A stretch of DNA of 64,000 bases, from the IMG/VR virus record IMGVR_UViG_3300042557_001775, positions 1 to 64,000 of that record. One strand, written 5' to 3'. Source of the stretch: a virus. The position numbers and the translations under genes are program-made. A model generated the notes under the pieces. The model was not told the DNA's origin, made no database searches, and saw only the letters and a list, made by a program, of their open reading frames with translations. Shown here in pieces: positions 1,137 to 56,289 of this stretch (positions within the stretch are counted from its first letter, which is position 1; each line of letters opens with the position of its first letter).

Positions 1137-1680
1137 ACGGCTCCCCTGATTGTTGCGGTTATCAGCCGGTTAATAAATGCAAAATCCTGGCAAAAATTTA
1201 TTTCCCATCAAATGATATGTAACTGCTGCGAAATTGGTGATCAGAGGGGACCGTGGTGGATCGGGTGGTGGGTCACAGATTCAGGATCCGTGCGCTTTCT
1301 ACCGATCATCTCTGTATTGTGCCGCATTGTGACGAGAACCATGAAGCATGGATATTGCTGCAAGCCTCTGTGCATCAATGACTTACGCCAAAAGGGGCAA
1401 ATCAGCCTCTAACAGAGTAGCATCAGGCCAAATAGCCCACCTCTATACAACATAGAAGGGAAAATCCGGCCCTTTTGATTGATTCGCCCTGCTTTTCAGG
1501 GGGTTTCCCTCCTTTGGCCTCATAACCTGCCTACCGATTAACAGAGTAAATCGCCGTGTCCCGTCCATTTATTCATGGAAGAAAGCTCCAACGGAGCCGG
1601 ATTCCTAACCATACAACCCCGCAGCCAGAGGGAATACGCCGATCAGATCATTCTGATTCTGCGCTGGCATCGTTAGTCCT

Positions 1681-2061
1681 ATGAATAAAAACACTGCACT
1701 CAAGTCACTCGTCGCCGCAATCGCCTCCGCTGACAAAGCGTTGGTCAGCATCGGCGAGAAAGGCAAAGCCGCTCGCGCCGCTGGCGTCGAGAAAACCGAA
1801 TTGCGTGACGCGCTCCGCGAGTTGTTCGGCTTCGACAAAACCCGCGAAGGCTCCAAGCCCCGCCACGCGATCAACAGCAAGATCAGCTACTACCTCGCCA
1901 TCGCTGGCTACAACAAGAGCAACGTTGGTTCCAAGGGCGGCGCATACGAAGTGACCAAAGGCTTCGTGTCCTACGTCAAGAAAGGCCTGAAGGAGTTCGG
2001 CATCGAAGAGACCGACTACCGCAAGGCTCTCAACGCGGCGATCGCCGAGATCATCGGCTAA
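1681..2061 (+). CDS. Basic hypothetical protein, first early gene (126 aa)
   Basis: ATG start, strong C-ending codon bias, flanked by two palindrome copies. Confidence 0.85.
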   Translation: MNKNTALKSLVAAIASADKALVSIGEKGKAARAAGVEKTELRDALRELFGFDKTREGSKPRHAINSKISYYLAIAGYNKSNVGSKGGAYEVTKGFVSYVKKGLKEFGIEETDYRKALNAAIAEIIG

Positions 2062-2188
2062 TCAGAACGATCTGATTCACGCTCCGTTGATCGAGAACAA
2101 CAGCGCAGGGCTTCGGCCCTGCGTTGTATCTTGCTCAAAGAGGCAAGCGTGGCGCGATTCACGCACCATGAACCATGAACCATGAACC

Positions 2189-2398
2189 ATGTCCACAAAA
2201 TCAAAACTACTGCCCCTATTAACCGATGCCGAAGTGAAGCGTGAAGCCGACGCGATTGAGCGTTACATCGAACACCGCAATCCCTTCTTTGGTAAAGTTT
2301 CGTTCGGCGAGTTTTGTCGTATCCCATACATGACTCCCGCCGAGATTGCGGACGCTTCGCCGGAGTTGCAACACGCCGCGACGTTCTGGAGCTACTAA
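2189..2398 (+). CDS. Hypothetical protein (69 aa)
   Basis: ORF in the early operon, preceded by ACCATGA heptamer repeats. Confidence 0.7.
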   Translation: MSTKSKLLPLLTDAEVKREADAIERYIEHRNPFFGKVSFGEFCRIPYMTPAEIADASPELQHAATFWSY

Positions 2399-2400
2399 CA

Positions 2401-2490
2401 ATGTTCGTCGAAGACCTCATCAACCCGATGATTGCTATCGGGTCGTTCCTCATAGTCTACACCTTCATCCGTAGTTTGATGGATTGGTAG
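2401..2490 (+). CDS. Small membrane peptide (29 aa)
   Basis: MFVEDLINPMIAIGSFLIVYTFIRSLMDW; ATG 2 nt after the upstream stop; below the ORF track cutoff. Confidence 0.5.
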   Translation: MFVEDLINPMIAIGSFLIVYTFIRSLMDW

Positions 2491-2613
2491 CTAATCACAT
2501 CGGCGCATCCTTCGGGGTGCGTCGAGGTGTCGAATCAGAATGTTCTGATTCGCTCCCTCGGCATGAGGGGCAACAAACTCCCCGCAAGGCGAGCATCATG
2601 CCACACCACGAAC

Positions 2614-2805
2614 ATGGAAACAGGAATACCCCTGCCCAAGAAAAAGCTGCCCCGCTTCCGCGAGGCGAAAGACGAGGGACGTCCCCTCGCCTTCGAGCCA
2701 ACCCCCAAGGAACTCGAAGACGAAAGGTCGCGCTATCTGGCGGCCAACAACCGCAACTTCGGGACGAATCTGGCTTTCGTCATTGACTTCGTCCCTAAAT
2801 CATAA
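2614..2805 (+). CDS. Hypothetical protein (63 aa)
   Basis: In-frame ATG (METGIPLPKK) downstream of the palindrome is preferred over the track start at 2527. Confidence 0.65.
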   Translation: METGIPLPKKKLPRFREAKDEGRPLAFEPTPKELEDERSRYLAANNRNFGTNLAFVIDFVPKS

Positions 2806-2815
2806 CCTCATCACC

Positions 2816-3031
2816 ATGAGCCATGAAACAAGGTTCCTTAACCCTGATCCACAGCCACAGGCCGATCTGGCCGAGTGGCGTCCGAGTGCCAAAACCCCGA
2901 TCGCTAAACGTCATGCCGAGAAATCCGGAATGCCGAGCATCGACATTGGCGAAGGAGTCGAGCCGTCACTCTCCGACTTCGGTTTCTACCATCCTGCGGC
3001 AAATGAACGCGGAGGTCGATATGCGGAGTGA
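2816..3031 (+). CDS. Hypothetical protein (71 aa)
   Basis: ATG (MSHETRF) directly after an ATAACC-N5-ACC motif. Confidence 0.65.
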   Translation: MSHETRFLNPDPQPQADLAEWRPSAKTPIAKRHAEKSGMPSIDIGEGVEPSLSDFGFYHPAANERGGRYAE

Positions 3032-3110
3032 CATCAACAAAACCAAGTGTCTGGAGAAGCTGGTCTTATTGTCCCTGCTCCTCGTTTGGATGCTGTTCGC
3101 TCTGCTGTAA
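3021..3110 (+). CDS. Small membrane peptide (29 aa)
   Basis: GGAGG 5 nt before the ATG; hydrophobic C-terminus LVLLSLLLVWMLFALL. Confidence 0.5.
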   Translation: MRSDINKTKCLEKLVLLSLLLVWMLFALL

Positions 3111-3164
3111 TAACCACAACACCCGAATCAGAACGTTCTGATTCACATCCTATCATCTATCACG

Positions 3165-3698
3165 ATGCCTACTAACACCACCAAAACCTACGTCCTTCGT
3201 GGAGGAACTTATCCCAAAGACTCCATCGAAGTTGATACTGAAGCAGGAACCTTCTACCGCTCCGGCGGCGGCTTTGTCCGCAACATCGCGGACTTGAAGC
3301 GTTTCAACGAGGACTTCCGTCCCGCTACGGAAGAAGAACTCAACTACAACCCGCCCTTCCGCAAGGGCCGCTTCTCCATCGAGATGATGGACGAGGACAA
3401 GCCGTTCCTTTGCGTGGACGGCTACACGATGGGCTTTCTCTGGAACGGATGGGCGATGCCCGTCTTCGACAAGGAGAACGCGGAGAAGATCCTGAAGGCG
3501 ACCGATGCCAAATACCGCTACGACGAAGCCACGGACACCTTCTCGTGGATCGTTCTCGACGGCGAGGAAGAAGACTCGACGCAAGGCAGCATCATCCACG
3601 TCGATGGTGTGCCGGTGAAGGTCTACTCCATCGGCGCAGGGTCGTGGACTTGGGACGAGGTGACCGATCCCGAGCAAGTCGGTGACGTGGAGGAGTAG
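3165..3698 (+). CDS. Conserved-looking phage hypothetical protein (177 aa)
   Basis: WNGWAMPVF and YSIGAGSWTW motifs; strong codon bias. Confidence 0.85.
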   Translation: MPTNTTKTYVLRGGTYPKDSIEVDTEAGTFYRSGGGFVRNIADLKRFNEDFRPATEEELNYNPPFRKGRFSIEMMDEDKPFLCVDGYTMGFLWNGWAMPVFDKENAEKILKATDAKYRYDEATDTFSWIVLDGEEEDSTQGSIIHVDGVPVKVYSIGAGSWTWDEVTDPEQVGDVEE

Positions 3699-3803
3699 TG
3701 ACACCGCCTCTCCCACTTTGGGAGGGGCGCAGTCTCGACTCATTCAGGGCCGAGAGAATCAGAACGTTCTGATTCAAACCACAAAACCTAACATGGAGGT
3801 AAC

Positions 3804-4127
3804 ATGAAAAGAAAAAAGTCGTCGCCCACATTCACATACAAAGATTCGGAAAAAGCCGCCGATCTCCTCAACAAGCTGTCGAGCGAGAACCGCTGCAACA
3901 GCAACCCGCATTACCGGCCAGACGCGTTGGATACAACCGACCTCGGCGCCTTGCGTAAGGCGCTCTGGGACGCCGTCCGTCTCCTCGACGACGCGCGCCG
4001 CGAACGCGACACGGAGCATCAACGGCACTGGAAGACGGAAGCGGGGAACATCGAGCGCATCTCCCAACTCGAACGCGAGAGGTCCACGCTGATCGGCGCC
4101 TTCAAGCTAGTTCTGTCGAGCAAATGA
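3804..4127 (+). CDS. Hypothetical coiled-coil protein (107 aa)
   Basis: GGAGG RBS before the ATG; ATGA-type overlap with the next gene. Confidence 0.8.
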   Translation: MKRKKSSPTFTYKDSEKAADLLNKLSSENRCNSNPHYRPDALDTTDLGALRKALWDAVRLLDDARRERDTEHQRHWKTEAGNIERISQLERERSTLIGAFKLVLSSK

Positions 4128-4390
4128 ACTGGCAACAGACGCTTCAGGAAATCAAGGGGGCTTATAAGTGGGAGGAAATCAACGATCACTCTCGCCGCGT
4201 CGTGCTTCGCATGAGTGAATGCGGAAGCGGAAACGGAACCGACTGCGAACCCGATCCGGCTATGCTGAGTTGGGCGCGGGAGACGGGCCGTTCGATCCGC
4301 AAGCAATGGCCGGGCGTCCGCGTGACGCTCGTCACCATCGACGAGTGGGTCTGTGTCGAGGTCGAGATCGACAAAGAGAAAGAGGAGTGA
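4124..4390 (+). CDS. Hypothetical protein (88 aa)
   Basis: Overlapping start and stop with the upstream gene. Confidence 0.75.
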   Translation: MNWQQTLQEIKGAYKWEEINDHSRRVVLRMSECGSGNGTDCEPDPAMLSWARETGRSIRKQWPGVRVTLVTIDEWVCVEVEIDKEKEE

Positions 4391-4502
4391 GGCTCCGCGC
4401 CCCTTCCAACTCTGGGAGGGGCGTCAGCCTCAAGCCTTCCGGCTTGGGGAATCAGAACATTCTGATTCATAACCAAAACACCTAACATGGAGATATAACA
4501 CC

Positions 4503-5114
4503 ATGCCTATTAAGAAAGTTGATCTGTCTGCCATCGGCACAAAGCCGAGCGGCAGCAAGAAATCGTATCCTGCGCTGCCCGTCACGCCGGAGATGAACGA
4601 ACACCTCAAGGTTATCCTCAAGAATAACCGCGAGATCGAAGTCATCGAGGCTGACACCGCTGCGCGTCGCGCTGAACTCATCCCGCAAGCGATGAAGTTC
4701 TTGTATGAGTTCTATCGCGGCAAGACTGACATCGAGTCCTCGCTCGAAGCGAAGACCGACGAAGGAGATTCGATGCTCTTCACGATGGCGAACCGCTATC
4801 GTGGATTGCCTGACGAGTCGCCCATCGTGGACTTGATCGGCGAAGACCGAACCACGGCCTACTTCTCCCAGAGTGTGGAGATCAAGGTCAACGGCGACAA
4901 AGTCCCGCTCGACAATCTGCCGGTCTTTGTGGCCGAGCTGACCGAGCTGTGCGCTCGCCACAACGCCTCGGGAGCTTTGACTTCCAAGGCGGTGATCAAG
5001 CCGAGTCCCGAGTTCCACACCGCCCGGCACACGGCATTCACGCCGGAGGAGAACATCGCTTTGGACTCGTTCCTCGCTCCGGTGGTGATGATCAAGACCA
5101 AGGGTCGCAAGTAA
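4503..5114 (+). CDS. Hypothetical protein (203 aa)
   Basis: GGAG RBS; strong codon bias; TAATG coupling to the ligase gene. Confidence 0.85.
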   Translation: MPIKKVDLSAIGTKPSGSKKSYPALPVTPEMNEHLKVILKNNREIEVIEADTAARRAELIPQAMKFLYEFYRGKTDIESSLEAKTDEGDSMLFTMANRYRGLPDESPIVDLIGEDRTTAYFSQSVEIKVNGDKVPLDNLPVFVAELTELCARHNASGALTSKAVIKPSPEFHTARHTAFTPEENIALDSFLAPVVMIKTKGRK

Positions 5115-5719
5115 TGAACCCGCCAACCTTCCCTGCGCGGCCGATGAAAGGCGGCCCGTTGGATCGGGCTAGGCAGAAGCCTGAACCCGAAGCATGGTTC
5201 TATGAACCCAAGGTCAACGGCTGGCGTGTTCTCATCGACGTGAAGAACAAGAAGATGTGGACGCGTTACAACCGACCATCATCGGTCGAGCATAAGTTTC
5301 AACCTGCGCTCGATCAACTGGTGGCCGCGTTTGGCGGCTTCGGCTGGCTGGACTGCGAAGCCCTCGGACTTCGCGCTCTGGGAGCAGGGCTTGGATCACT
5401 CGTCGTGTTCGACATCTGCAACCTACCCGGCGACTCCTACGAACAGCGGCAAGAGATCCTCGACCTCGCGCTGCAAGATGTCGTCTGGCCGTGGTCCATC
5501 AACGCAAAGCCAGCGCAAGACGTCATCTATCGGCTGCCCCGCTGCGGCTGGCCCAGAGCCGACGAGTTGTATGCCGACTTGAAAGCGGCCAACGCCGCGC
5601 TCGGCCTTGAGCTGTATGAAGGCGTCGTGGCGAAGCATGGACGGAAAACCTACCCGACACAGCTTCGATCCGCTACGGAGGAGACTCCTTGGTGGGTCAA
5701 GCATCGTTGGGACTATTAG
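5114..5719 (+). CDS. ATP-dependent ligase-like nucleotidyltransferase domain protein (201 aa)
   Basis: Motif I EPKVNGWR, motif III LDCE, motif IIIa VVFD, motif IV EGVVAK, motif V WWVK. Start set at the TAATG overlap. Confidence 0.8.
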   Translation: MNPPTFPARPMKGGPLDRARQKPEPEAWFYEPKVNGWRVLIDVKNKKMWTRYNRPSSVEHKFQPALDQLVAAFGGFGWLDCEALGLRALGAGLGSLVVFDICNLPGDSYEQRQEILDLALQDVVWPWSINAKPAQDVIYRLPRCGWPRADELYADLKAANAALGLELYEGVVAKHGRKTYPTQLRSATEETPWWVKHRWDY

Positions 5720-5733
5720 AAAGGAGGTAACAC

Positions 5734-6198
5734 ATGAGAAAGACGTCTATTGAATGTGCAATGGAAATCTGGAAAGCCGGCGGCGGCGTTGCCGCCAGCG
5801 AATGGCAGGAGAGAGCATCCTACGGACGGGGCGGGTATCCGATCTACAAGCGGCGACCCACGCCTGTCTTCAGTCGGGAAATGACGCGCAACGATCTCTC
5901 GTTGTTGGCGATGTGCCCTGATCCGGAAGATGCGGCTTATTTCCGGGCGATCCTCGCCAACGTGACTCGCCGCCATCCCAAAGTGCGGAAGGTCATCGTG
6001 GTCAACGATCCGGTCGGGCTGCGGTCCGCGTGTGTGGATGCGGAAATCCCAGAGCCAAGGTTCGACGCCTTGATGGGCCAATGGGATATCGGCAACACAG
6101 TGGCGAGCCAGCGCGTATGGCAGGCCCAGGCCAAGCCGCGCTATGCGTGGCAAGGTCTCGTGAAAAGGCTTGATCCTGCTCCGGCGCTGGGTTCATAA
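5734..6198 (+). CDS. Hypothetical protein (154 aa)
   Basis: AAGGAGGT RBS before the ATG. Confidence 0.8.
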   Translation: MRKTSIECAMEIWKAGGGVAASEWQERASYGRGGYPIYKRRPTPVFSREMTRNDLSLLAMCPDPEDAAYFRAILANVTRRHPKVRKVIVVNDPVGLRSACVDAEIPEPRFDALMGQWDIGNTVASQRVWQAQAKPRYAWQGLVKRLDPAPALGS

Positions 6199-6345
6199 CC
6201 TGCCAACCGGAATCAGAACCTTCTGATTCTGGGAGGAACACCATCCCTTCTCACTCAACAAATGTTGAGTCTGGGAGGGGATGGCATCCTCCCCGCAGCT
6301 CTAGCTGCGACGGAGATCATAACCTAACTACCAAAGGAGGTATAC

Positions 6346-8022
6346 ATGCCCATCAAATACTACACCCCCACGCTCGACAAAGCGGTGAAGGATCACCACA
6401 TCGACTACCGAGTGCGGGGCCGACTGCCAGAAACTTACGACCTGCAATGGGTCGATAAGCGTCACCCGTGCAAGACCGGCTGCTGGCGTTTCGACCACGC
6501 GTCTGGTCGCCACGAGATCCGTTTGTCCGTGATCTGCTACGACACCCTGACCAAGGGCGGAGCAGCACACGGCAAGCGGGTCGCCGTGCCTGACCTGTAT
6601 CGCAACGTCTACGAACACGAGGCAGCGCACTCGCTCTACACGACCAAAGACCTCGAAGGTCTCGGCAAGATTCTTGCCGCCGAGAAAATCCCTTGGCGGC
6701 TGATGAACTTGTTCGAGGACTGCCGCATCGAGCGTAATTGGATCCTCCGCGAACGCGCTGGCAAGTCGTTTCGCTGGACTCGTTGGGAGGAGCATCCGCC
6801 CGTCTCCAAGATGAGCGCGAGCAGCTTGCTCTTCCACATGAAGACCGAAGGCCTGACCCGCAGCGGGTATCGCTTCCCTCGGTCGTTCATCATTGCCCAT
6901 CGGACACACCCCAACTGGCGCAAAGTCTACGACTATTACCGCCGCATCGTCGGATGTGGAGGGACCGAAGACCTCGTGCCGATCCTCAAGGACTGGCTCA
7001 AGGACTTCCCCGCTACGGGTGACGACACCATCGAGGGCGAAGGCGGCGCTGGAACCGGCGACATGGGCGAAGCGATCGGCGAGGCCACGGGGACGCACCC
7101 CAAGGACGTCAAAGCGAAAGACCCCAAAGGCGAAGGCGCATCGCCGGAGACCAAATCCGGAGGCGGCAAGGGGAAAGGCGGCAAGGCGCCCGGCACCCGT
7201 GCCGAGACCACCGAGTCGCCGAGTCACGGACGCGGCAGCGGCGGCTCCGCTTCCGAAGTCGTGCCGACCATCGACCACGAGACCGAGCGTTCGCTCCGGC
7301 TGGCGCAACTGCTGGCCCAAGCGTTCCGCAAGAACGGCGTCATCGCCAAAGGGCCAACGGCCCGTCCGTCCAAGCGGCTCAACCTGCGCGGCTTGCTGCG
7401 CGGCGACTGGTCTCGTCCGTTTGTCGGCAAGACCATCGGCAACACGAACAAGCCGCACATCTCGTTCGTCATGGATTGCTCGGGCAGCATGGGCTGCCTG
7501 ACTCACCTTGATCGTTCGCGCAAGGTTGCGCTCCGCACCGACGACTGCGGTCGAATCCTTGCTCGTGCCTTGAACGAGCTGGCTCGTCTCGGTCACATCA
7601 CGGGCGTCGTCTACGGCTCATCGGATGGCGGCTGCCATTCGCGCACCGAGCTGCCTGTCCCAGACCATGTGCTGACGATGGACGCCGGCCTCGAAGCCTT
7701 CTCCGGCTCCGAGGGTATCGGCCTCACGTTGGCGCCCGGCTGCAAGCCCGGCTGCTACACGAAGAAAGGCTCCGGCTCGTTCTTCGAGGAGATCGCCGCC
7801 AAGTCCAAGATTGCCATCGTCTACACGGACGGCTGCATCACGGACGCTCCGGTCAATCGTATGCCGCTCCGTGCGCGTGGCGTCTACACCATCGGCGCCT
7901 ATGCCGGACCGGACAAGACCATCTCACTACGACACCACTTCGATTACGTCATCAGCCGTGACTCGTTGTGGGGCGTAGCCGATGCGCTCGTCCGCACCCT
8001 GAAGTCCATCCCGCGCAAGTAA
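6346..8022 (+). CDS. CobT-like protein: N-terminal HExxH domain, low-complexity linker and VWA domain
   Basis: YEHEAAH and NLFEDCRIE; Gly/Lys/Glu-rich linker; MIDAS DCSGS and YTDG; AAGGAGG RBS. Confidence 0.85.
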   Translation: MPIKYYTPTLDKAVKDHHIDYRVRGRLPETYDLQWVDKRHPCKTGCWRFDHASGRHEIRLSVICYDTLTKGGAAHGKRVAVPDLYRNVYEHEAAHSLYTTKDLEGLGKILAAEKIPWRLMNLFEDCRIERNWILRERAGKSFRWTRWEEHPPVSKMSASSLLFHMKTEGLTRSGYRFPRSFIIAHRTHPNWRKVYDYYRRIVGCGGTEDLVPILKDWLKDFPATGDDTIEGEGGAGTGDMGEAIGEATGTHPKDVKAKDPKGEGASPETKSGGGKGKGGKAPGTRAETTESPSHGRGSGGSASEVVPTIDHETERSLRLAQLLAQAFRKNGVIAKGPTARPSKRLNLRGLLRGDWSRPFVGKTIGNTNKPHISFVMDCSGSMGCLTHLDRSRKVALRTDDCGRILARALNELARLGHITGVVYGSSDGGCHSRTELPVPDHVLTMDAGLEAFSGSEGIGLTLAPGCKPGCYTKKGSGSFFEEIAAKSKIAIVYTDGCITDAPVNRMPLRARGVYTIGAYAGPDKTISLRHHFDYVISRDSLWGVADALVRTLKSIPRK

Positions 8023-8189
8023 CCCCTGCCTCGGGAGACCCACCTCCCCTTCCCGCTCTGGGAGGGGGAGCTAGTCTCTCACTCAACCAATGTTGAGTTC
8101 GGGAGTTAAACACAACCCCCTCTGGTATGCGGGGAACCGAATCAGAGCCAATCAGAAGGTTCTGATTCCGTTGCATACCAAACGTTAAC

Positions 8190-9539
8190 ATGTCCGATAA
8201 ACATTCCGATTCGATTAACATCGACAACCTCCCGTGGCCGGCCGCTCGCGCCTTGGCGAAACAGCAGCTCGGCATCAAGGGCGAGTGGGTCTCCCACTGC
8301 ACCCTGCCCCGCCTCAAAGCCATGCTCAAAGGCGAGATGACCGTGGCCGACGCGCAAGCCGCTTCCCTCGCTGACCAAGCGAAGAAAGCGGGCCTCTCGC
8401 TGGGCGGCGGCATCGACGCTACTGCGCTCAAGCCGATCGAAGCCAAGCTCACCGAGCTGGCAGGTATCGTCTCGTCGCTCGACGACGAGGTGACTACGGC
8501 CAAGTCCGAAGCGGCCAAGCTCGTCGGCGACTTGCACACGGAGATGTCCGATCGACTCACCGAGTCGCACGATGCCTTCACCAAGCTGCAAGATGCCGTC
8601 ACCTCGGCGCTCGCCAGCGGCGGTTCGGCTGCGGCCAAGGTCATCGCTCCGATCCTCGGCGTGTCTGCGCCTTCCTCGTCTGACCCCGTGGTCATGGCGC
8701 TGGAAAGGTTCTGCGCTCCAGGCCGTGCGATCAAGCCGCTGCTCGTCAAGGGCGGCCAAGGCGCAGGCAAGACCTACGCTGCGCGTCAGCATGGCATGAC
8801 CGCCGGCTTTGACCGCTGCGTGGAGTTCGGTGTCCACTCCCAGACCGAGGCCGTGGACTTCCTCGGTATGATGATGCCGAGCGGCGAGTGGCTCGACGGC
8901 CCGTTGACCGAGGCGTTCCGCGCTGCGGCTCTGGGACAGCTCGTCTTGCTCATCATTGACGAGATCTATCGTGGTCAGAACGGCGCTCGCACACCGCTTC
9001 TCACGGCCACGTCTCCCGCCCGTCTGCCGAGCGGCGAGCGGGTCTATCGTCTCCGCACGGGTCGCGCCATCGTCGATCCGGTGACTGGCGTTCACACCTC
9101 CGAAATCATCGAGGCTCCTTGCCAGAACCTCGCCATCGTTGCCACGACCAACGTCGGGGCCGAGTTCAACGTCGATCCGGGCTGCCCCGCCGAGCGCGAG
9201 CGGTTCCGCCCTATCCACGTCGAGGTTGACGAGGTCAAGATCCGCGCTGTCTGCGGCGCCATCGCCACGGCCAAGGGCTTCAGCCCCTCCGTGGTTGACC
9301 GCACACTCGCCTTCTACCGCGAGTGCAACGTCCTCAAGACGGACGGGTTCATCGAACTCTGCCCGTCCACCCGCATCCTCTCCGAGGCGATCGAATACGC
9401 CGACAGCGAGGCCAACGTGAAGTCGATGCTGTGCGAACTCGGATTGCACATCTGGGTCGGCACCACCATCGAAGGCAAGCCCGAGGAAGAGCAAGTCAAG
9501 CGCGTCACCACCGCACTCGACAAGGCCTTCGGGAAATAA
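8190..9539 (+). CDS. MoxR/CobS-like AAA+ ATPase with N-terminal helical extension
   Basis: Walker A GGQGAGKT, Walker B LLIIDE, sensor ATTN and arginine-finger ERF; adjacent to the VWA gene. Confidence 0.88.
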   Translation: MSDKHSDSINIDNLPWPAARALAKQQLGIKGEWVSHCTLPRLKAMLKGEMTVADAQAASLADQAKKAGLSLGGGIDATALKPIEAKLTELAGIVSSLDDEVTTAKSEAAKLVGDLHTEMSDRLTESHDAFTKLQDAVTSALASGGSAAAKVIAPILGVSAPSSSDPVVMALERFCAPGRAIKPLLVKGGQGAGKTYAARQHGMTAGFDRCVEFGVHSQTEAVDFLGMMMPSGEWLDGPLTEAFRAAALGQLVLLIIDEIYRGQNGARTPLLTATSPARLPSGERVYRLRTGRAIVDPVTGVHTSEIIEAPCQNLAIVATTNVGAEFNVDPGCPAERERFRPIHVEVDEVKIRAVCGAIATAKGFSPSVVDRTLAFYRECNVLKTDGFIELCPSTRILSEAIEYADSEANVKSMLCELGLHIWVGTTIEGKPEEEQVKRVTTALDKAFGK

Positions 9540-9602
9540 CCTGACCACCTAACGCGTAACCGCCCTTTCCAATCTGGGAGGGGGCGGCCGCACCAAAACA
9601 CC

Positions 9603-10037
9603 ATGTTTAATTCAAGTGGATTCATCGAGGGTATCAAATCCCTCTACAATCAGGGCGTTCGTAAGATCGTCACTGATTTCAGCGGCGGAGGCGACTCCGG
9701 CGATATCAACTACATTGCGTTCTATAGCGCGGGCGGTTCGGAAAAGCTAACCGTCGAAGAGCCACTCGACTGGCGGGATGAGATGCACAACATCATCACC
9801 AGCGAGGTTCATTGCGACTGGTATAACAACGAGGGAGGCGGCGGTTCGATCGTCATCAATCTCGAAGTCAACCCGCCGACCATCGAGGTCAACTCGTATT
9901 GGAACGAGACTGTCTGCCGCGACGAGCCGACTGTGACTGACACGCTGGATCCGACGCTCGTGCTGCCGAAGCCGGCCGTTCCAGAACACGCGGCTGTCCG
10001 CGCTGCCAAGAAGCTGCCGAAACGGGAGGCCAAGTAA
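9603..10037 (+). CDS. DUF6878-like protein
   Basis: FSGGGDSG and DWYNNEGGGG motifs (family recalled, not searched). Confidence 0.65.
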   Translation: MFNSSGFIEGIKSLYNQGVRKIVTDFSGGGDSGDINYIAFYSAGGSEKLTVEEPLDWRDEMHNIITSEVHCDWYNNEGGGGSIVINLEVNPPTIEVNSYWNETVCRDEPTVTDTLDPTLVLPKPAVPEHAAVRAAKKLPKREAK

Positions 10038-10444
10038 TGCACCCCTATCACCACGCGCTCTCCAGCGCCAAGAAGTTCGGAGGCCAGCCCGAAGACTACC
10101 TCGCGATCCATCACTGGTTCGACGAGTCGAAGGAACAGTTCGCCAACTTCCGCCATCGTGCGCTGCGTCATCACGCGCAGGGCATCTACGAGTGTGAGCG
10201 CAAGTTCGGCATCACCATGACCAACTCGGACGGGCGCACGTTGCCTGTCCGTTACATCGGCGAGCAGCACGTCAACGAGGACATCGGGTTCATCCCGTCC
10301 CTCCAAGACTGGCTCTCCGCCATCGTCCCAGAGCCGTGGATGCGGAGTCGCCCCCATGGCGTGGACAAGAACACCGAGGACGAGGCCGTCAATCGACGGA
10401 CTGTCCGCAAAACCAACACAACCAAGAAGGAGATCAAACTATGA
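10037..10444 (+). CDS. DUF6915-like His-rich protein
   Basis: MHPYHHALSS..KFGG, HHWFDESK, HRALRHH and EQHVNED motifs; TAATG coupling. Confidence 0.75.
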   Translation: MHPYHHALSSAKKFGGQPEDYLAIHHWFDESKEQFANFRHRALRHHAQGIYECERKFGITMTNSDGRTLPVRYIGEQHVNEDIGFIPSLQDWLSAIVPEPWMRSRPHGVDKNTEDEAVNRRTVRKTNTTKKEIKL

Positions 10445-10692
10445 GATTAGTGAAATTCACCCGAGTTGACTCGAACAGCGGCGACGAGGGCTTGATCTGG
10501 ATCAACCCAGAGCAGGTCGCTCGCGTCATTCCAAAGGCTTCCGTCTCCGAGACGCCGAAAGTCGCTTACGCAAACACCCGCATCTCTGTCGCCGGCACGT
10601 CGATTGCGTTCTGGGTCAAGGAGACGCCCGACGAAGTCGTCGCTGCGTTGACTGGCTCACCCGTTGCCGTCCGGTTGGCGGCGAAACTCTAA
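10441..10692 (+). CDS. FlbD/SwrD-like small protein (83 aa)
   Basis: KFTR...IWINPEQV...VKETPDEV pattern; AAGGAG RBS. Confidence 0.55.
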   Translation: MRLVKFTRVDSNSGDEGLIWINPEQVARVIPKASVSETPKVAYANTRISVAGTSIAFWVKETPDEVVAALTGSPVAVRLAAKL

Positions 10693-10711
10693 CCAGAAAG
10701 GAAAACATATC

Positions 10712-10945
10712 ATGTTACAGATCATACAACGTCCCCTCCTCACCGGAGGGCTTGAAACCGAATACCTCGAAGTCCCCTCGCCCGAGGAGATTGCTGCCGA
10801 GGTCGAACGCATCGAGTTCGAGCGCAACTCGTGGGCGCGCAAACGCTACGCAGCGTTCGCCAACTACGACGTGGACACGCTCACGTTCGACGATGAACCC
10901 GGCCACATTGTCCCAGACCATGAACCCGTGGAGGAATTCCTATGA
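10712..10945 (+). CDS. Acidic hypothetical protein (77 aa)
   Basis: AAGGA RBS before the ATG at 10712. Confidence 0.7.
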   Translation: MLQIIQRPLLTGGLETEYLEVPSPEEIAAEVERIEFERNSWARKRYAAFANYDVDTLTFDDEPGHIVPDHEPVEEFL

Positions 10946-11253
10946 GCATCATGGACATCATGGAAGACATCAAACAAAACGTCGATTCGCTGCTCGTAGA
11001 CCGGCAGTCCAAGCGAGTTCTGGCGATGCACGATCTCTCTCGCAGGGAGCCGAGCTACGAGCGCGGCTGTTTCGGGAAGGCGGATCTCGGACGTAGTTAC
11101 GTCCGGCAAGCAGATCGAATCAGCCGTAAACGTCATAAACACTACGGCGTCTACCGCTGTCCGCATTGCGGCGGCACTCACCTGACAACCAAACTGGAGA
11201 ATCGGGGGCAATACGCACCGCTTCTCTACATCACAACAACGAAAGGAAACTAA
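10942..11253 (+). CDS. Zinc-ribbon phage protein
   Basis: YRCPHCGGTHLT motif. Confidence 0.75.
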   Translation: MSIMDIMEDIKQNVDSLLVDRQSKRVLAMHDLSRREPSYERGCFGKADLGRSYVRQADRISRKRHKHYGVYRCPHCGGTHLTTKLENRGQYAPLLYITTTKGN

Positions 11254-11257
11254 AACC

Positions 11258-11506
11258 ATGATTAAAATCGATACCGAGTCCACCCTCTACGTCTGCACCG
11301 ATGGGACAAACGCCGAGGTTCACATCATTGCCCCCAAGCGCACCACGCTTGCGGAAGCAATCGCGGGGATCACAACCAGTAGCTACGAACACATTGAGCA
11401 TCTCCGCCTCGACGACCCTGATCCCTACGGGCCTCACTGCACTGACGCGGCGATCTTCAAGCTGCTGTGCGAGTCGGATATGGAACACCACACGTTCGAC
11501 ATCTAA
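11258..11506 (+). CDS. Hypothetical protein (82 aa)
   Basis: AAGGA RBS; continues the operon. Confidence 0.7.
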   Translation: MIKIDTESTLYVCTDGTNAEVHIIAPKRTTLAEAIAGITTSSYEHIEHLRLDDPDPYGPHCTDAAIFKLLCESDMEHHTFDI

Positions 11507-11526
11507 CCACCAACGAAAGGAAACAA

Positions 11527-11685: not shown

Positions 11686-11697
11686 AAAGGAACTACC

Positions 11698-12110: not shown

Positions 12111-12147
12111 TTGAACGATTAATAACCTTGCATAGTCTTAACCCTTA

Positions 12148-12459: not shown

Positions 12460-12474
12460 CCCACTAATACTCAT

Positions 12475-12720: not shown

Positions 12721-12829
12721 CCAGATTAGGGATTGCGGCGGAGTGGTTCTTCTCTGGTCATTATCATCCCCTGTCCAGTAACCGCATAAAAGCTGGACAC
12801 TTTTCATAACCGTGCTACCTTCCTACCTC

Positions 12830-13660: not shown

Positions 13661-13696
13661 AACGCACTAAACTGCTAATTATAGATAAGTTGTTAC

Positions 13697-14808: not shown

Positions 14809-14812
14809 CTTT

Positions 14813-15136: not shown

Positions 15137-15157
15137 GCGAGAGCTTCTCTGCGCTGC

Positions 15158-27477: not shown

Positions 27478-27500
27478 TGCTAAAAGTAGCGGTTGTTAGG

Positions 27501-28529
27501 TTATGATGCAACTGGCCGGGACTTCCAGTAATCCAGATAATCGTCAAACGTCGGCTCGGGCTTCGGGTCGGCGGTTACGAACTTGGGAATCGCGTTGATG
27601 GCTTGAATCCTGACTTCGCCGTTAGAGTCCATGAGTGCCCGGAGTCCGCGTTTTGCCTCCTTTGAGAACCCCTTAAAACGCTCTTCCTTGGGCTTGTTCC
27701 ACTCTTGGCTAAGGTAGTCTTGAAACTGGGACGGCGCTTCAAACCGTTGGCCGTATAGCACATAGGCGTCCCGTTGGATTTTACCTAACGCGTTCGCCAT
27801 CTCTCGGGGGCGCCCAATGTGTCCATAACCGGATGTTGCGTCGGGACTGTTGTCAGTAAAATGGTGGCCGACTTCGTGTTCCAATGTTTCTCTGACGTCA
27901 CTGCGGGGGTTGGCTGCCGCTGCTTCTAGGTCCGGCGGCTCCATGTTATTCTTGTCTAAATATTGCGCGACGCTCTTTCCGAGCGGCTCTTGCGAATAGT
28001 TTTTGCTTTTAGCCGCAACAAATTCAGGACTGTTTAACCTAATTCCAGTTTCGGGGTTGTAGTGCGCGGCCTTCTGCACTTTTTCTCCGGTCTCCACTTT
28101 TACAAATACGGGCGCGTCAATTTTGTCGTAGTCGATGGTATACGCGTCTCCGTAGTATCGGCCTTTAGGGACATCCATCGCCCCTTGATTTTGATCTTCT
28201 GCCCACGCACGCGGGTTCCGGAATCCGGCGGGCTGCCTTTTCATAAAGGGCAAAGCCGCTTCTGGATTCTCTTTGTCGAACGCTTTCGCCTTGGCAATTT
28301 CTGCGTCAAGGTTTTCGCCGTAGTACGGCGAAAGCACCTCGCGGCCAGTAACCATCGACGCGGCTCCGGCTTCGAGATTCGGCATCGGGCCGTATTTCTC
28401 AAGCAGCTCCGCGTCGGACAGGGTGGAGATCGGCTGCCCTTTGATCTCGCTCAAGTTCCGGACACCCGGCCCACTTCGCCCCGGGAGATACGGGTCAACG
28501 GCTTCCAGAATTTCGTCGTACCAAGCCAT
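27501..28529 (-). CDS. Zincin-like (HExxH) putative internal virion protein (342 aa)
   Basis: LEHEVGHH followed by a downstream PREM glutamate; N-terminus shared with the giant protein. Confidence 0.75.
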   Translation of the reverse strand: MAWYDEILEAVDPYLPGRSGPGVRNLSEIKGQPISTLSDAELLEKYGPMPNLEAGAASMVTGREVLSPYYGENLDAEIAKAKAFDKENPEAALPFMKRQPAGFRNPRAWAEDQNQGAMDVPKGRYYGDAYTIDYDKIDAPVFVKVETGEKVQKAAHYNPETGIRLNSPEFVAAKSKNYSQEPLGKSVAQYLDKNNMEPPDLEAAAANPRSDVRETLEHEVGHHFTDNSPDATSGYGHIGRPREMANALGKIQRDAYVLYGQRFEAPSQFQDYLSQEWNKPKEERFKGFSKEAKRGLRALMDSNGEVRIQAINAIPKFVTADPKPEPTFDDYLDYWKSRPVAS

Positions 28530-32453: not shown

Positions 32454-32466
32454 GGGTTAGCAGGTT

Positions 32467-32475
32467 ATTATATCA
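32467..32475 (-). promoter_or_regulatory. Extended -10 promoter candidate upstream of the ejection cluster
   Basis: TG-A-TATAAT, 13 nt before the ATG at 32453. Confidence 0.5.
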
Positions 32476-42417: not shown

Positions 42418-42595
42418 AAGCCTGTTTTTCTCCTTTCAAGAGAGGTTTTGTGGTTATGAATCTAGTGATGTCCAAAACCGCCATTGCGGAGCCAGACGCT
42501 AGATCCAAGGTTTTCTTTACCCTCTGCGGAAAGGGCCTATACACGCAGTTGTTTTTTCGAGCCGAGTATTACCGCTACTCGTAAGCGTGAGATAA

Positions 42596-48926: not shown

Positions 48927-48948
48927 ACATTTTGCGGTGTTCAGGTTA

Positions 48949-49191
48949 TTACCTATTCATCAGATGTCGGAAGCTGTCAAATACCCAAGCGGACATTGCC
49001 GCTATGGCGGCGGCGACCCCGTAAATGGAGGACTTTGCCGTCTCCAGGTGCTTCAACCTTTCGTCGTGCTTATCGAAGACTTTGCCGAACCTCTCTTGGT
49101 TGTCCAAAATAAGGTCTACCTTAGTCTCCAGCCGCACGAGCCGCTGAGCGTCTAGGAAGTGGTCTGATTCTTTGCCGGCCATTTCATTCAT
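48949..49191 (-). CDS. Coiled-coil plus C-terminal TM protein (holin/XhlA-like)
   Basis: RLVRLETKVD...RLKHLE followed by a hydrophobic helix. Confidence 0.7.
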   Translation of the reverse strand: MNEMAGKESDHFLDAQRLVRLETKVDLILDNQERFGKVFDKHDERLKHLETAKSSIYGVAAAIAAMSAWVFDSFRHLMNR

Positions 49192-55215: not shown

Positions 55216-55229
55216 GGGTGGTCAGGTTA

Positions 55230-55478
55230 TTATAGCTTAGGGCGAAGAAATGTCACCCGGCGGACTCCGCTGGAGCGAAAAACCCGGAACGATTGACGTT
55301 CGACCGAAGGGTTGCGGAGCATTCGCTGATACAGCCCCGAGCTTGCGAAGTCGCGATGGCTTTTCCATCCCTCTCGGCGGAGCGCCTCTTCATTGACGCC
55401 TTCAGATTCAGCCTCTATCGCCGCCCACGCCGAGTCGTAAAGATCAGACGCGGAGGGCTTTGCTTTCTTCTGGATCAT
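55230..55478 (-). CDS. Hypothetical protein (82 aa)
   Basis: Overlaps the end of the phosphoesterase gene. Confidence 0.6.
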   Translation of the reverse strand: MIQKKAKPSASDLYDSAWAAIEAESEGVNEEALRREGWKSHRDFASSGLYQRMLRNPSVERQSFRVFRSSGVRRVTFLRPKL

Positions 55479-56265
55479 AGGTCAAAAGTTTTACCGCAGG
55501 GAGGCTGTTCGCCGGAAGATTACGCCAATCGAGAATACCGACCGACGGGCGGCACAAGCTATCGCCGACGACTTTGTGTCCGTAGCGGGTCAGCATTTGC
55601 CACGCGCCGGTCACGAGGAAGAGCGCGTGAGCGTCCGAGTAGTAACCGCCGCAATGGCGATGTCCTCTCAAGAACACCCGGGGCAGCCGATGGCCGGAGC
55701 GCGCGTAGTTCAAACGAGCGTTTCCCATCGTAATGCTCATGGCCCCCGCTTCGAGATACGCCCGTGCGCTGGTCGGCATGTGGTGCGCTACGTCGATAAG
55801 CGTTCCATTGAGTTCAAGCAGCGCCTTGTCGCCGCAGAACTGCCCGCCGCACTCTTGCGCGATATACTCTTCCCAGTCGCCGGTATGACATTCAGTTCCG
55901 GCAATGAAGTAGCGCTTTGCGGCTACTTTCGCCAGCGGAAGCAACGCTTGGATCGCCGCGCTGCTGTGGTCTTTCATCTTGGCGGCGACGACTTCCTGAG
56001 TCCCGTGGTGCCGGCCTTCGATGCAATCTCCGTTGACGATCAGCGCCCAGGGCGCCCCTTTGAAGTGTTCAAAGATCCGTGTCTGCATGTCGGTCCAACA
56101 CGACCACAACCACTGCTGATGAAGGTTATCGCCTAAGTTGACGGTGTTGCCGTAACTGACTTTGGCGCCGTCAGGCCAGAGCCCGACAGAAGAACCGCAA
56201 TGTAAATCAGATACGACAACTACTCCTGCTACTTCGGCTGACGCCGGTTTCGGTCGTTTACGCAT
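55444..56265 (-). CDS. Calcineurin-like metallophosphoesterase
   Basis: SDLHCG, NGD, GTECH, AHH and GHRH motifs. Confidence 0.85.
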   Translation of the reverse strand: MRKRPKPASAEVAGVVVVSDLHCGSSVGLWPDGAKVSYGNTVNLGDNLHQQWLWSCWTDMQTRIFEHFKGAPWALIVNGDCIEGRHHGTQEVVAAKMKDHSSAAIQALLPLAKVAAKRYFIAGTECHTGDWEEYIAQECGGQFCGDKALLELNGTLIDVAHHMPTSARAYLEAGAMSITMGNARLNYARSGHRLPRVFLRGHRHCGGYYSDAHALFLVTGAWQMLTRYGHKVVGDSLCRPSVGILDWRNLPANSLPAVKLLTYDPEESKALRV

Positions 56266-56289
56266 GAGGTTAGTCGGTTATGATAAACG

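What the first reader, a model, noticed from the sequence alone, without database searches (positions are those of the whole stretch)
1522..56281. Genome-wide, sense-oriented intergenic motif ATAACC-N5-ACC
Seen: exact copies on + at 1522, 2802, 3110, 4469, 6195, 6319, 9536 and 12806, and on - at 27491-27504, 32455-32468, 42444-42457, 48936-48949, 55217-55230 and 56268-56281. Variants with AACC-N5-ACC lie at 1605, 3775, 59978, 60013 and 60349. Every copy I found is at a gene boundary and follows the direction of transcription. On the late strand they precede the giant protein, ejection cluster, capsid, holin, portal and phosphoesterase genes. The portal and 32453 copies share TATAATAACCTGNNNACCCATG. 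Nine fixed bases should occur roughly once by chance in a window this size. Inference: a phage-specific promoter or activator site, an RNA-processing signal, or a non-Shine-Dalgarno translation element. I did not scan coding regions exhaustively.
Basis: partly seen in the sequence, partly recalled or inferred. Interest (0 to 1): 0.75.

Follow-up and report, generated by a model that had tools for sequence, protein, structure and literature searches.

The report
Phage-specific promoter-like motif at gene starts
A short, one-directional DNA word sits in front of genes all over this uncultured phage genome and its relatives but is rare in the likely host bacteria, so it is most likely the phage's own start signal for transcription, read by a factor that is still unknown.

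Summary
All 14 listed copies of ATAACC-N5-ACC are present, against 0.14 expected. A 15th lies at 70195, outside the window. None lies inside a coding interior, and all point the way of the neighbouring genes.

The window is part of a 72.7-kb integrase-carrying phage. Its closest integrase relatives sit beside tRNA or tmRNA genes in Terrimicrobiaceae (Verrucomicrobiota) genomes.

In 27 non-redundant related loci, GTAATAAC and TAATAACC are the commonest intergenic 8-mers. The family consensus is GTAATAACCnCRYAA, with no -35 element.

The start codon never begins less than 10 nt after the first A. Downstream genes 10-25 nt away have no Shine-Dalgarno-like sequence (0 of 32 gene groups). Those 26-45 nt away often do (11 of 21).

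The word is about 3-fold rarer than its reversed control in 41 host-family genomes. No phage RNA polymerase or sigma factor was found.

Best reading (0.55): a compact phage-specific promoter that starts transcription near the ACC and often gives leaderless or short-leader mRNAs. Rivals are a stoperator-like regulator site and an RNA-level signal. No transcript data were available.

The parts
1520..1535 (+). exact copy TCATAACC-N5-ACC; no gene for 145 nt, and the variant at 1605 follows
   Evidence: a hairpin plus T-run lies just upstream
1605..1618 (+). variant CTAACC-N5-ACC, 63 nt before the ORF at 1681
2800..2815 (+). exact copy; ATG follows directly (2816) with no SD; the upstream ORF stops in the motif's TAA
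3108..3123 (+). exact copy (TAATAACC form), followed after 1 nt by the palindrome at 3125-3144
3775..3788 (+). degenerate copy CAAACC-N5-ACC directly after the palindrome at 3756-3775; a paralogue of the 4469 site
4467..4482 (+). exact copy whose TC is the end of the palindrome at 4449-4468; an SD-like GGAG lies in the leader; ATG at 4503
6193..6208 (+). exact copy containing the upstream stop; followed after 1 nt by the palindrome at 6210-6229
6317..6332 (+). exact copy, then AAAGGAGG and the ATG at 6346 (558-aa HExxH/vWA protein)
9534..9549 (+). exact copy (AAATAACC form) containing the upstream stop; 53 nt before the ORF at 9603
12120..12127 (+). core-only copy TAATAACC (no ACC), offset 26 to the ATG at 12148
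12804..12819 (+). exact copy after a hairpin plus T-run; ATG at 12830 with no SD; the upstream gene ends 85 nt away
27491..27506 (-). exact copy before the 3,878-aa giant protein gene (ATG at 27477, no SD); the upstream stop is inside the motif
32455..32470 (-). exact copy (TATAATAACC form); ATG 1 nt after ACC (157-aa protein, phrog_21390)
42444..42459 (-). exact copy before the conserved 430-aa structural-arm protein (putative capsid, unverified); AAAGGAG in the leader. A TAATAAC-type or TAACAAC-type word stands 25-50 nt before the ATG of this gene in nearly all relatives shown
48936..48951 (-). exact copy before a 58-aa ORF upstream of the M15-type endolysin gene
55217..55232 (-). exact copy (TATAATAACC form); ATG 1 nt after ACC (780-aa protein, 66% identical in G003)
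56268..56283 (-). exact copy between the large terminase gene and a 273-aa ORF; ATG 2 nt after ACC
58264..58277 (-). variant TCATAACC-TTGCA-CAA at the head of the late arm, 7 nt from the integrase ATG on the other strand. The same site (TAATAACCTTG..) stands in three Terrimicrobiaceae prophage ends
59576..59589 (+). variant (TA)ACAACC-N5-ACC containing the integrase stop, before the RHH gene
59978..59991 (+). variant ACAACC-N5-ACC
60013..60026 (+). variant AAAACC-N5-ACC, 7 nt before the ATG at 60034
60349..60362 (+). variant of a second class, GGTTCTTAACC-N5-ACC. Two more copies lie outside the window at 64734 and 68847
2059..8168 (.). context: seven copies of the palindrome GAATCAGAA-NN-TTCTGATTC (2059, 2532, 3125, 3756, 4449, 6210, 8149). 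Four of them abut motif copies. Likely operators
   Evidence: expected 0.00

Best explanation
The motif is the core of a phage-specific promoter. Numbering the 14-mer A1 to C14, the conserved block runs from T at -1 to C14 in this phage (T[C/A]ATAACC-nnAnn-ACC). In relatives it reads G-TAATAAC-C-n-C-R-Y-A-A.

It works as a single -10-like element with no -35. A1 takes the place of the -11 adenine. Transcription is inferred to start at position 11-12, at the Y-A step, which is the A of ACC in this phage.

Genes whose ATG lies 10-25 nt after A1 would then be made as leaderless or very short-leader mRNAs without a Shine-Dalgarno sequence. Genes further away get a normal leader, often with one. 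Palindromic operators beside four early copies would let a repressor block them.

Because the likely host family hardly uses the word, and because it breaks sigma-70 rules (C at the -7 place, no -35, no TG), recognition probably needs a phage-specified factor that sequence searches do not recognise.

Shown: the statistics, location, orientation, conservation, spacing pattern and rarity in the host family. Inferred: that it is a promoter, where the start site lies, and what reads it.
For: 1. Excess and placement. 15 copies against 0.14 expected. None is in 63,455 coding-interior bases. All are co-oriented with the genes.

2. Family-wide signal. GTAATAAC and TAATAACC are the commonest intergenic 8-mers in 27 non-redundant loci totalling 534 kb. 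Of 122 T[AC]ATAACC hits, 107 are at gene boundaries. For 100 permuted control words the figure is 210 of 896. The word keeps its place before the 430-aa protein gene in relatives with 50-62% protein identity, while the flanks diverge.

3. Shape. The conserved block is contiguous and ends in Y-A-A, with nothing conserved upstream (73 unique sites). The best -35 match averages 2.8 of 6, against 2.72 for random positions.

4. Spacing. The smallest offset from A1 to the ATG is 10. Nine unique sites have offset 10 or 11. Offsets vary within orthologous genes, for example 10/13/19 and 14/21/25.

5. SD-like words. They occur in 0 of 32 downstream-gene groups at offset 10-25 and in 11 of 21 at offset 26-45. 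The base rate is 5 of 30 minus-strand gene starts, most of them in the late arm, and 9% of 164 host genes.

6. Sites that coupling cannot explain. 7 of 63 short-offset sites have no upstream ORF ending nearby. One follows a strong terminator.

7. Terminators. A hairpin plus T-run lies within 70 nt upstream at 23 of 151 sites, against 221 of 3,000 random positions. Some are strong terminators 8-13 nt before the word.

8. Head of the late arm. A copy stands in the divergent region beside the integrase gene in G000, in G003 and in three prophage ends.

9. Operators. Seven palindromes lie in the early arm, and four abut motif copies on either side.

10. Host family. 696 copies against 2,145 of the reversed word in 41 genomes, with fewer in 41 of 41. 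That is 4.6 per Mb, against 329 per Mb in G003.
Against: No 5'-end or expression data exist: no RNA run was listed.

No phage RNA polymerase (PF00940) or sigma region 2 was found in six frames. The PF00940 control rang in none of the 14 control genomes, so that blank is weak. The only sigma-like hit is a sub-threshold region-4 HTH in a protein that looks like a small terminase.

By sigma-70 rules the element is poor: C at the -7 place, no -35, no TG.

The upstream gene's stop codon lies in the motif's TAA at 37 of 75 sites. In the early arm of G003 almost every gene has a copy. Both fit an intercistronic RNA element too.

SD sequences are rare in this phage and in the host anyway, so their absence at short offsets weighs little. 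The lower bound of 10 is partly forced by the conserved bases at positions 7-11.

Counts rest on my own crude gene calls.
Confidence: 0.55

Rival explanations
1. RNA-level signal. The word acts in the transcript, either as a cleavage or processing site that creates new 5' ends before each cistron, or as a ribosome-loading or re-initiation element in a host that rarely uses Shine-Dalgarno pairing.
For: The upstream stop codon lies inside the motif at 37 of 75 sites. In the early arm of G003 nearly every gene is preceded by TAATAACC-caaca-ACC and an A/C-rich leader. Only 9% of 164 host genes, and 5 of 30 minus-strand phage gene starts (mostly late arm), have SD-like words. So another initiation aid is plausible. 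The orientation is strictly sense.
Against: The offset to the ATG ranges from 10 to more than 40 nt and varies among orthologues, which does not suit a positioned ribosome site. SD-like words co-occur with the motif at longer offsets (11 of 21 groups). Copies stand just after strong terminators and at the head of the late arm, where little upstream RNA is expected. Reverse-oriented copies with no gene behind them occur upstream of the 430-aa protein gene in some relatives. Processing as such cannot be excluded from sequence alone.
Confidence: 0.2
2. Stoperator-like site. The asymmetric word binds a phage regulator, for example the immunity repressor, at many intergenic places and silences or blocks transcription through them, as in Cluster A mycobacteriophages.
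For: The phage family carries integrases: 6 of 6 complete records (plus G000). It occurs as integrated prophage ends. The site is asymmetric, about 15 bp, with 15-24 copies per genome, intergenic, in one orientation relative to transcription and rare in the host. This matches the description of stoperators in passages of PMC6550527 and the abstract of PMC9283540 (listing). The consensus drifts between relatives, as stoperator motifs do.
Against: A separate, perfect palindrome in seven copies already looks like the repressor's operator and abuts the motif. The 8-nt core is invariant across phages with only 38-42% integrase identity and 50-62% identity in the 430-aa protein. The -10-like sequence, the Y-A step, the lower bound of the ATG offset and the SD pattern are not predicted by this model. 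No candidate asymmetric-site repressor was identified.
Confidence: 0.15
3. Ordinary host-type promoter or generic A/C-rich host leader, read by the unmodified host sigma-70 holoenzyme.
For: Copies precede early as well as late genes, and early genes must be read before any phage factor is made. The word resembles TATAAT in four of six places. A canonical TTGACA-16-GATATT promoter lies in front of the phage tRNA-Met gene and shows that standard promoters occur here.
Against: The word is about 3-fold rarer than its reversed control in 41 of 41 host-family genomes, and in G006-G009 of the five genomes reached through the integrase loci; G010 had 43 against 42. ATAACC is not notably enriched upstream of 164 host genes: 3 counts, 1.5-fold. 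There is no -35 and no TG. The host assignment rests on integrase relatives, not on this phage itself.
Confidence: 0.05
4. No expression role. The word would be a recombination or cassette boundary, or a replication- or packaging-polarised word whose orientation merely follows the two genome arms.
For: Orientation by arm cannot be separated from orientation by gene direction, because each arm is transcribed one way.
Against: Polarised words of that kind also occur inside genes. Here none of the 15 copies lies in 63,455 coding-interior bases, and the position relative to start codons is regular.
Confidence: 0.05

Closest known systems
Phage T4 late promoters (TATAAATA, read by host core polymerase with gp55, gp33 and the sliding clamp); recalled, not from a call
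   Same: A single A/T-rich 8-nt -10-like element with no -35. It is repeated before many genes, is phage-specific, often overlaps upstream stop codons, and is read through a sigma-like protein that is hard to recognise by sequence.
   Different: The sequence differs: TAATAACC plus a conserved start region. Here it precedes genes of all classes, not only late ones. No gp55-like or gp33-like protein was found, though no dedicated model for them was searched. The host is a verrucomicrobium.
Promoters of T7-like single-subunit RNA polymerases; recalled
   Same: A contiguous conserved block that ends at the start site. It is phage-specific, intergenic, co-oriented with the genes and present in many copies per genome, with few terminators between them.
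   Different: The block is about 15 nt, not about 23. No RNA_pol (PF00940) match appeared in a six-frame search of the genome (the control was uninformative). The conserved C-terminal domain of the giant virion protein is all-helical with no polymerase-like fold match.
Stoperators of Cluster A mycobacteriophages (PMC6550527 passages; PMC9283540 abstract, listing)
   Same: An asymmetric site of about 13 bp, with many copies per genome. Copies are intergenic and predominantly in one orientation relative to transcription. The phages are temperate, and the consensus drifts with phage relatedness.
   Different: Binding of a repressor has not been shown here. A separate palindromic operator set exists. 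The motif is -10-like and has a regular relation to start codons.
Start-associated sequences (SAS) of Cluster K mycobacteriophages (PMC3203893 passages)
   Same: An asymmetric 13-bp repeat in one orientation, immediately upstream of start codons. It sometimes contains the upstream stop, is absent from the host genome, has unknown function, and half of the copies have adjacent inverted repeats.
   Different: SAS lie 3-7 bp from the start codon, contain the SD core, and are confined to the non-structural half of the genome. Here the offset is 10 to more than 40 nt, there is no SD core, and both arms carry copies.
Leaderless-gene promoter architecture of Actinobacteria and Deinococcus (-10 box 6-7 nt before the start codon); recalled
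   Same: A -10-like box at a short, bounded distance from an ATG that has no SD.
   Different: Those boxes are the host's own TANNNT. Here the box ends in C and is not a host word.

Membership tests
sigma-70-type bacterial promoter | -10 hexamer with A at -11 and T at -7 | tested here: not met
   A1 is invariant and fits -11. The -7 place is an invariant C: 15 of 15 sites here and 73 of 73 in relatives.
sigma-70-type bacterial promoter | -35 hexamer at 16-18 nt, or an extended -10 TG | tested here: not met
   The best -35 match averages 2.8 of 6, against 2.72 for random positions. In relatives, G precedes TAATAAC in 50 of 73 sites, but T precedes that G in only 18 of 73.
sigma-70-type bacterial promoter | used by the host's own genes | tested here: not met
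   696 copies against 2,145 of the reversed word in 41 host-family genomes. ATAACC occurs 3 times upstream of 164 host genes. The host assignment is indirect.
phage single-subunit RNA polymerase promoter (T7-like) | a cognate T7-like RNA polymerase gene in the phage | tested here: inconclusive
   PF00940 found nothing in six frames, but it also rang in none of the control genomes. Pfam and PHROGs scans of 60-odd proteins found no polymerase.
phage single-subunit RNA polymerase promoter (T7-like) | a contiguous conserved block ending at +1, in intergenic, co-oriented copies | tested here: met
T4-type late promoter (phage sigma-like factor) | a single -10-like element without -35 | tested here: met
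T4-type late promoter (phage sigma-like factor) | a phage-encoded sigma-like protein | tested here: inconclusive
   Sigma70_r2 is absent. The only region-4-like hit scores 19.8 bits (cut-off 25.7) in a protein that looks like a small terminase. Many small ORFs have no family.
stoperator | asymmetric, multi-copy, intergenic, one orientation relative to transcription, in a temperate phage | tested here: met
stoperator | bound by the immunity repressor, blocking elongation | not testable with these tools
   No binding or expression data. A distinct palindromic operator set exists.
start-associated sequence (SAS) | 3-7 bp before the start codon and containing the SD core | tested here: not met
   Offsets run from 10 to more than 40 nt, with no AGGAG in the word.
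any promoter | primary transcript 5' ends at the site | not testable with these tools
   No RNA run was listed for this phage.

The most novel reading that the evidence does not exclude
A family of temperate phages of freshwater Verrucomicrobiota (Terrimicrobiaceae) may run nearly all its genes from a 15-nt single-element promoter that the host itself does not use. The promoter would be read by a phage-specified sigma-like factor or polymerase with no detectable similarity to known ones, and would produce many leaderless mRNAs. Integration at a tRNA or tmRNA gene would cut the late operon off from its first copy of this promoter.
Probability: 0.25. Interest if true: 0.8.

Novelty: new variant of a known kind. 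Interest (0 to 1): 0.6.

Why it matters
Nothing in the papers I saw describes how such phages express their genes.

This word gives a concrete, testable handle. It marks probable transcription units in a whole family of uncultured phages: 47 related loci and five complete relatives.

It predicts leaderless expression in a host that rarely uses Shine-Dalgarno pairing. It also points to an unidentified recognition factor, because the host family avoids the word and no known polymerase or sigma factor is encoded.

If it turns out to be a regulator site or an RNA signal instead, it would still be a genome-wide control element of a kind known so far mainly from mycobacteriophages.

Tried and rejected
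N4-like idea. I first suspected an N4-like phage because of the giant protein and the hairpin-like palindromes. I dropped this for four reasons. The genome carries an integrase. No polymerase family matched. The giant protein has no T7-like motifs. Its conserved C-terminal 619 aa fold as an all-helical domain (pLDDT 79), with 0 PDB matches at E <= 0.001.

Sigma candidate. The 179-aa protein with a weak sigma region-4 hit aligns like a small terminase.

558-aa early protein. It has invariant HExxH and DxSxS motifs and an AAA partner, so it is not a polymerase.

Nearest phages. There was no match in the phage collection by DNA or by the 430-aa protein.

Prophage search. The 430-aa protein found nothing in 185,579 species genomes. 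The integrase search succeeded.

RNA evidence. No RNA holder was listed.

Putative capsid fold. The model was too poor to use (pLDDT 32.6). A profile search against PDB sequences found nothing. The only lead is an ESM Atlas cluster in which 11% of members carry Phage_capsid_3.

Clusters of the word in two host genomes turned out to be repeated coding sequence, not promoter arrays.

Host -10 consensus. 19 TTGAC-containing upstream regions were too few to derive one.

The generic terminator scan of 1-16000 was uninformative: 16 found against 17.9 expected.

A literature search for the word itself returned only unrelated primer and sequence hits. A search for verrucomicrobial phage isolates gave nothing relevant. 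Supplementary files of papers were not consulted.
Full report
**1. The observation**

The expectation is 0.14, with a largest value of 2 in 100 shuffles.

The window is the first 64 kb of a 72,742-bp IMG/VR virus record with a 127-bp terminal repeat. The whole record holds 15 copies. The extra one is at 70195 (+). The reversed control word has none.

With one mismatch allowed there are 27 matches against 6.5 expected. The fifth, at 3775, is CAAACC-N5-ACC.

I called genes with my own codon-usage scorer. On those calls:
- 14 copies lie in the 9,287 non-coding or boundary bases.
- One copy (2802) straddles two overlapping called ORFs.
- None lies in the 63,455 coding-interior bases on either strand.
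- Shuffles of the non-coding sequence alone give a mean of 0.038.

All 15 copies point the way of the flanking genes. The conserved word is longer than reported: T (14 of 15), then C or A, then ATAACC, then a G-poor spacer with A in the middle (10 of 15), then ACC. Nothing is conserved further upstream.

**2. What the genome is**

It is a phage with two divergent arms.
- The plus arm runs from 58284 through the record end to about 15136. It carries an integrase, an RHH protein, methyltransferases, a helicase with a DUF2800 domain, a family-A DNA polymerase and a DUF5906 primase-helicase-like protein. It also carries a 558-aa HExxH/vWA protein with an AAA partner, and many small ORFs.
- The minus arm runs from 58065 down to 15158. 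It carries the large terminase, tail-like proteins, an M15-type endolysin and a 3,878-aa protein.

Most proteins have no family. The names capsid, portal, holin and phosphoesterase could not be confirmed. No relative exists in the phage collection.

**3. Relatives**

The 430-aa structural-arm protein brought in 47 related IMG/VR loci with 50-92% identity.

In 27 non-redundant loci (534 kb, 93% coding), the commonest intergenic 8-mers are GTAATAAC and TAATAACC. T[AC]ATAACC occurs 122 times:
- 107 at gene boundaries, of which 83 are upstream of a co-oriented called gene;
- 7 in coding sense, several of which are visibly real gene starts;
- 8 in coding antisense.

For 100 permuted control words, 210 of 896 hits are at boundaries.

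In front of the 430-aa protein gene, a TAATAAC-type or TAACAAC-type word stands 25-50 nt before the ATG in nearly all relatives shown, while the surrounding intergenic sequence differs.

From 73 unique sites in relatives, the consensus is G(50) T A A T A A C C(62) n C(55) R Y A(65) A(53). Nothing is conserved upstream.

The complete relative G003 (72,870 bp) has 24 TAATAACC copies against 2 of the control. In its early arm almost every gene is preceded by TAATAACC-(c/a)aaca-ACC and an A/C-rich leader with AAGGA.

This genome also has a second class, GGTT[CG]TTAACC-N5-ACC, at 60349, 64734 and 68847, and ACAACC variants at 59576 and 59978.

**4. Geometry**

I measured the offset from the first A of ATAACC to the A of the next ATG that opens at least 45 codons. 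There are 108 unique sites, falling into 62 groups of downstream genes.

- The smallest offset is 10. Five sites have offset 10 and four have offset 11. In these the start codon takes over the conserved Y-A-A.
- SD-like words (AAGG, AGGA, GGAG, GAGG) by offset:

| Offset (nt) | Sites with SD-like | Groups with SD-like |
|---|---|---|
| 10-25 | 0 of 64 | 0 of 32 |
| 26-45 | 19 of 31 | 11 of 21 |
| 46-90 | 3 of 13 | 3 of 9 |

- Within orthologous groups the offset varies, for example 10/13/19, 14/21/25 and 24-48.

The SD base rate is low everywhere. It is 5 of 30 minus-strand gene starts of this phage, most of them in the late arm, and 9% of 164 host genes with an upstream gap of at least 60 nt. 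So the absence at short offsets is weak evidence by itself. The enrichment at offsets 26-45 is the stronger part.

The lower bound is also partly forced, because positions 7-11 are conserved.

The upstream gene stops in one of the motif's TAA triplets at 37 of 75 sites. Translational coupling could therefore explain many SD-less starts. However, 7 of 63 short-offset sites have no upstream ORF of at least 60 codons ending within 60 nt. Examples are 12806 here, the 430-aa protein gene of L051, and a G003 gene 35 nt after a strong terminator.

**5. Context**

- A hairpin plus T-run lies within 70 nt upstream at 23 of 151 sites, against 221 of 3,000 random positions. Several are strong terminators 8-13 nt before the word.
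- Seven copies of the perfect palindrome GAATCAGAA-NN-TTCTGATTC lie before early genes, where 0.00 are expected. Four abut motif copies, two upstream and two downstream. That is how operators sit on promoters.
- One copy (58264-58277, minus strand) stands at the head of the late arm, 7 nt from the integrase ATG on the other strand. The same site occurs in G003 and in three prophage ends.
- There is no -35-like hexamer: the best match averages 2.8 of 6, against 2.72 at random positions. The upstream tract is not A/T-rich.

**6.

All five complete relatives tested carry the integrase.

An integrase alignment found 48 loci in species genomes. 43 of the 48 record titles name a verrucomicrobial taxon; two of those assignments rest on my recall. 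The other five are two Acidobacteriota, one Sideroxydans and two unnamed.

The three best hits (40-41% identity over the full length) are in Terrimicrobiaceae MAGs (lineage). There the integrase and RHH genes lie about 200 nt from a tmRNA gene or a tRNA-Asp gene. TAATAACC lies between them on the opposite strand, and no other phage gene lies on the far side. These are integrated prophage ends. The host sample has 54.9% G+C, like the phage at 56.7%.

The word in host-side genomes:
- In the five genomes reached through the integrase loci, TAATAACC occurs 18-43 times, against 39-139 for the reversed word. It is the rarer word in G006-G009. In G010 the counts are 43 against 42.
- In 41 genomes of the family, it occurs 696 times against 2,145, and is the rarer word in 41 of 41. 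That is 4.6 per Mb, against 329 per Mb in G003.
- ATAACC appears 3 times upstream of 164 host genes.

So the word is not a generic host leader or promoter. The host assignment is indirect: it rests on relatives' integrases, not on this phage itself.

**7. What reads it**

- No PF00940 match appeared in six frames, but the control rang nowhere, so this is weak evidence.
- No Sigma70_r2 match appeared; that control rang in 11 of 14 genomes.
- One sub-threshold region-4 hit lies in a 179-aa protein that aligns like a small terminase.
- The giant protein has no Pfam or PDB sequence match.
- Its conserved C-terminal domain has 3,154 relatives in the representative library, at the ends of 1,000-4,400-aa proteins. 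It folds as an all-helical domain, with no PDB fold match at E <= 0.001.

The reader of the motif is therefore unknown.

**8. Interpretation**

The best-supported reading is a compact, phage-specific promoter.
- The block from T(-1) to the Y-A step has the length and layout of a -10 element plus discriminator plus start site.
- A1 sits where -11 would be.
- The start would be at position 11-12.
- Genes close by would be leaderless or short-leadered.
- Operators flank the early copies.

This reading breaks sigma-70 rules (C at the -7 place, no -35, no TG) and the word is not used by the host. So I infer a phage-specified factor.

If the copy beside the integrase gene drives the late arm, integration at attP would separate it from the late genes. 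The prophage ends show attP lying between that copy and the terminase gene. This is inference only.

The rivals are:
- an RNA-level signal (0.20);
- a stoperator-like regulator site (0.15);
- a plain host promoter (0.05);
- a non-expression word (0.05).

Only 5'-end mapping or reporter work can decide among them. No RNA run was listed.

**9. Comparison with known systems**

- It works most like T4 late promoters or T7-type phage promoters (both recalled from general knowledge), but no cognate protein was found.
- In distribution it looks very much like stoperators (PMC6550527 passages) and like start-associated sequences (PMC3203893 passages).
- It fails the SAS spacing and SD-core features.
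- It cannot be tested for repressor binding with these tools.

I therefore rate it a new variant of a known kind: a phage-specific genome-wide cis-element, in a phage-host group with no experimental system that I could find.

Noticed in passing
window 2059-8168 (+): 2059, 2532, 3125, 3756, 4449, 6210, 8149: Seven copies of a 20-bp palindrome, GAATCAGAA-NN-TTCTGATTC. Five are perfect and the central dinucleotide varies. Each lies before an early gene, and 0.00 are expected by chance. It is likely the operator set of a dimeric repressor. A hairpin promoter of the N4 kind was considered but has no support.
   Followed up: partly
window 926, 4411, 6228, 6270, 8057, 9573 (+); 26981, 32588, 46336 (-): TCTGGGAGG occurs 9 times against 0.37 expected. 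Six copies lie in the early arm, usually opening a GGGAGG...CCTCCC hairpin next to motif copies. GGGAGGGG is also among the enriched intergenic 8-mers of the family.
   Followed up: no
window 1035-1103 (-) and 1109-1136 (-): A tRNA-Met gene on the strand opposite to the arm it lies in. It is preceded by the best canonical promoter match of the early region (TTGACA-16-GATATT), which ends 6 nt before the tRNA 5' end.
   Followed up: partly
window 58066-58283; L067 1380-1990; L069 9700-10010; L068 8950-9230: Prophage ends of relatives lie in Terrimicrobiaceae MAGs, next to a tmRNA gene and a tRNA-Asp gene. The order is tRNA, about 100 nt, TAATAACC on the opposite strand, then the integrase gene. 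So attP lies between the first late-arm motif copy and the terminase gene. Repeated TTGTCCC/GGGACAA words there look like arm-type sites. In this window TTGCACAAA-type repeats occupy the same region.
   Followed up: partly
G007, G011-G050 (41 host-family genomes): TAATAACC is about 3-fold rarer than its reversed word in every one of the 41 genomes (696 against 2,145). Whether this is avoidance or a codon effect was not examined.
   Followed up: no
L119-L138 (392 kb of two Terrimicrobiaceae MAGs): Only 9% of 164 genes with an upstream gap have an SD-like word. Pyrimidine-rich words (CACCTT, CCTTCC, CCACCT) are 2.5-3.3-fold enriched upstream of genes.
   Followed up: no
window 27477 and 28529 (-): The 3,878-aa gene and the 342-aa gene before it both start ATGGCTTGGTACGAC (MAWYD), and both are preceded by TTGCATC. 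In the giant gene the motif plus a 13-nt leader sits between TTGCATC and the ATG, as if inserted or duplicated.
   Followed up: no
window 6346-8022 and 8190-9539 (+): A conserved early gene pair. One is a 558-aa protein with invariant HExxH and DxSxS (vWA MIDAS-like) motifs. The other is a 449-aa AAA protein with weak AAA_5 and CobS-like hits. They are 41-46% identical in G003.
   Followed up: partly
window 15841-27477 (-): The giant protein has a zincin-like HELSH motif near residue 2350 and long coiled-coil-like tracts. Its 600-aa all-helical C-terminal domain has 3,154 relatives (E <= 0.001) in the representative library, at the ends of very large proteins, and no solved structural match.
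   Followed up: partly
L037, L042, L043, L049 about 9826-9852 (-); L048 9835 (-); L054 9816 (-): In some relatives a reverse-oriented TAATAACC copy stands in the intergenic region upstream of the 430-aa protein gene, with no called gene behind it. It may be a divergent or antisense transcript start.
   Followed up: no
G000 70423-72741 (+) and window 3-215 (+): A 772-aa DUF5906 ORF runs to the very end of the record, and an open frame starts at base 3. The record's start point is probably arbitrary, with the 127-bp repeat coming from circular assembly.
   Followed up: no
window 13697-13963 (+): An 88-aa DUF5754 protein is 76% identical in G003. That is far more conserved than its neighbours at the end of the early arm. 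Its function is unknown.
   Followed up: no
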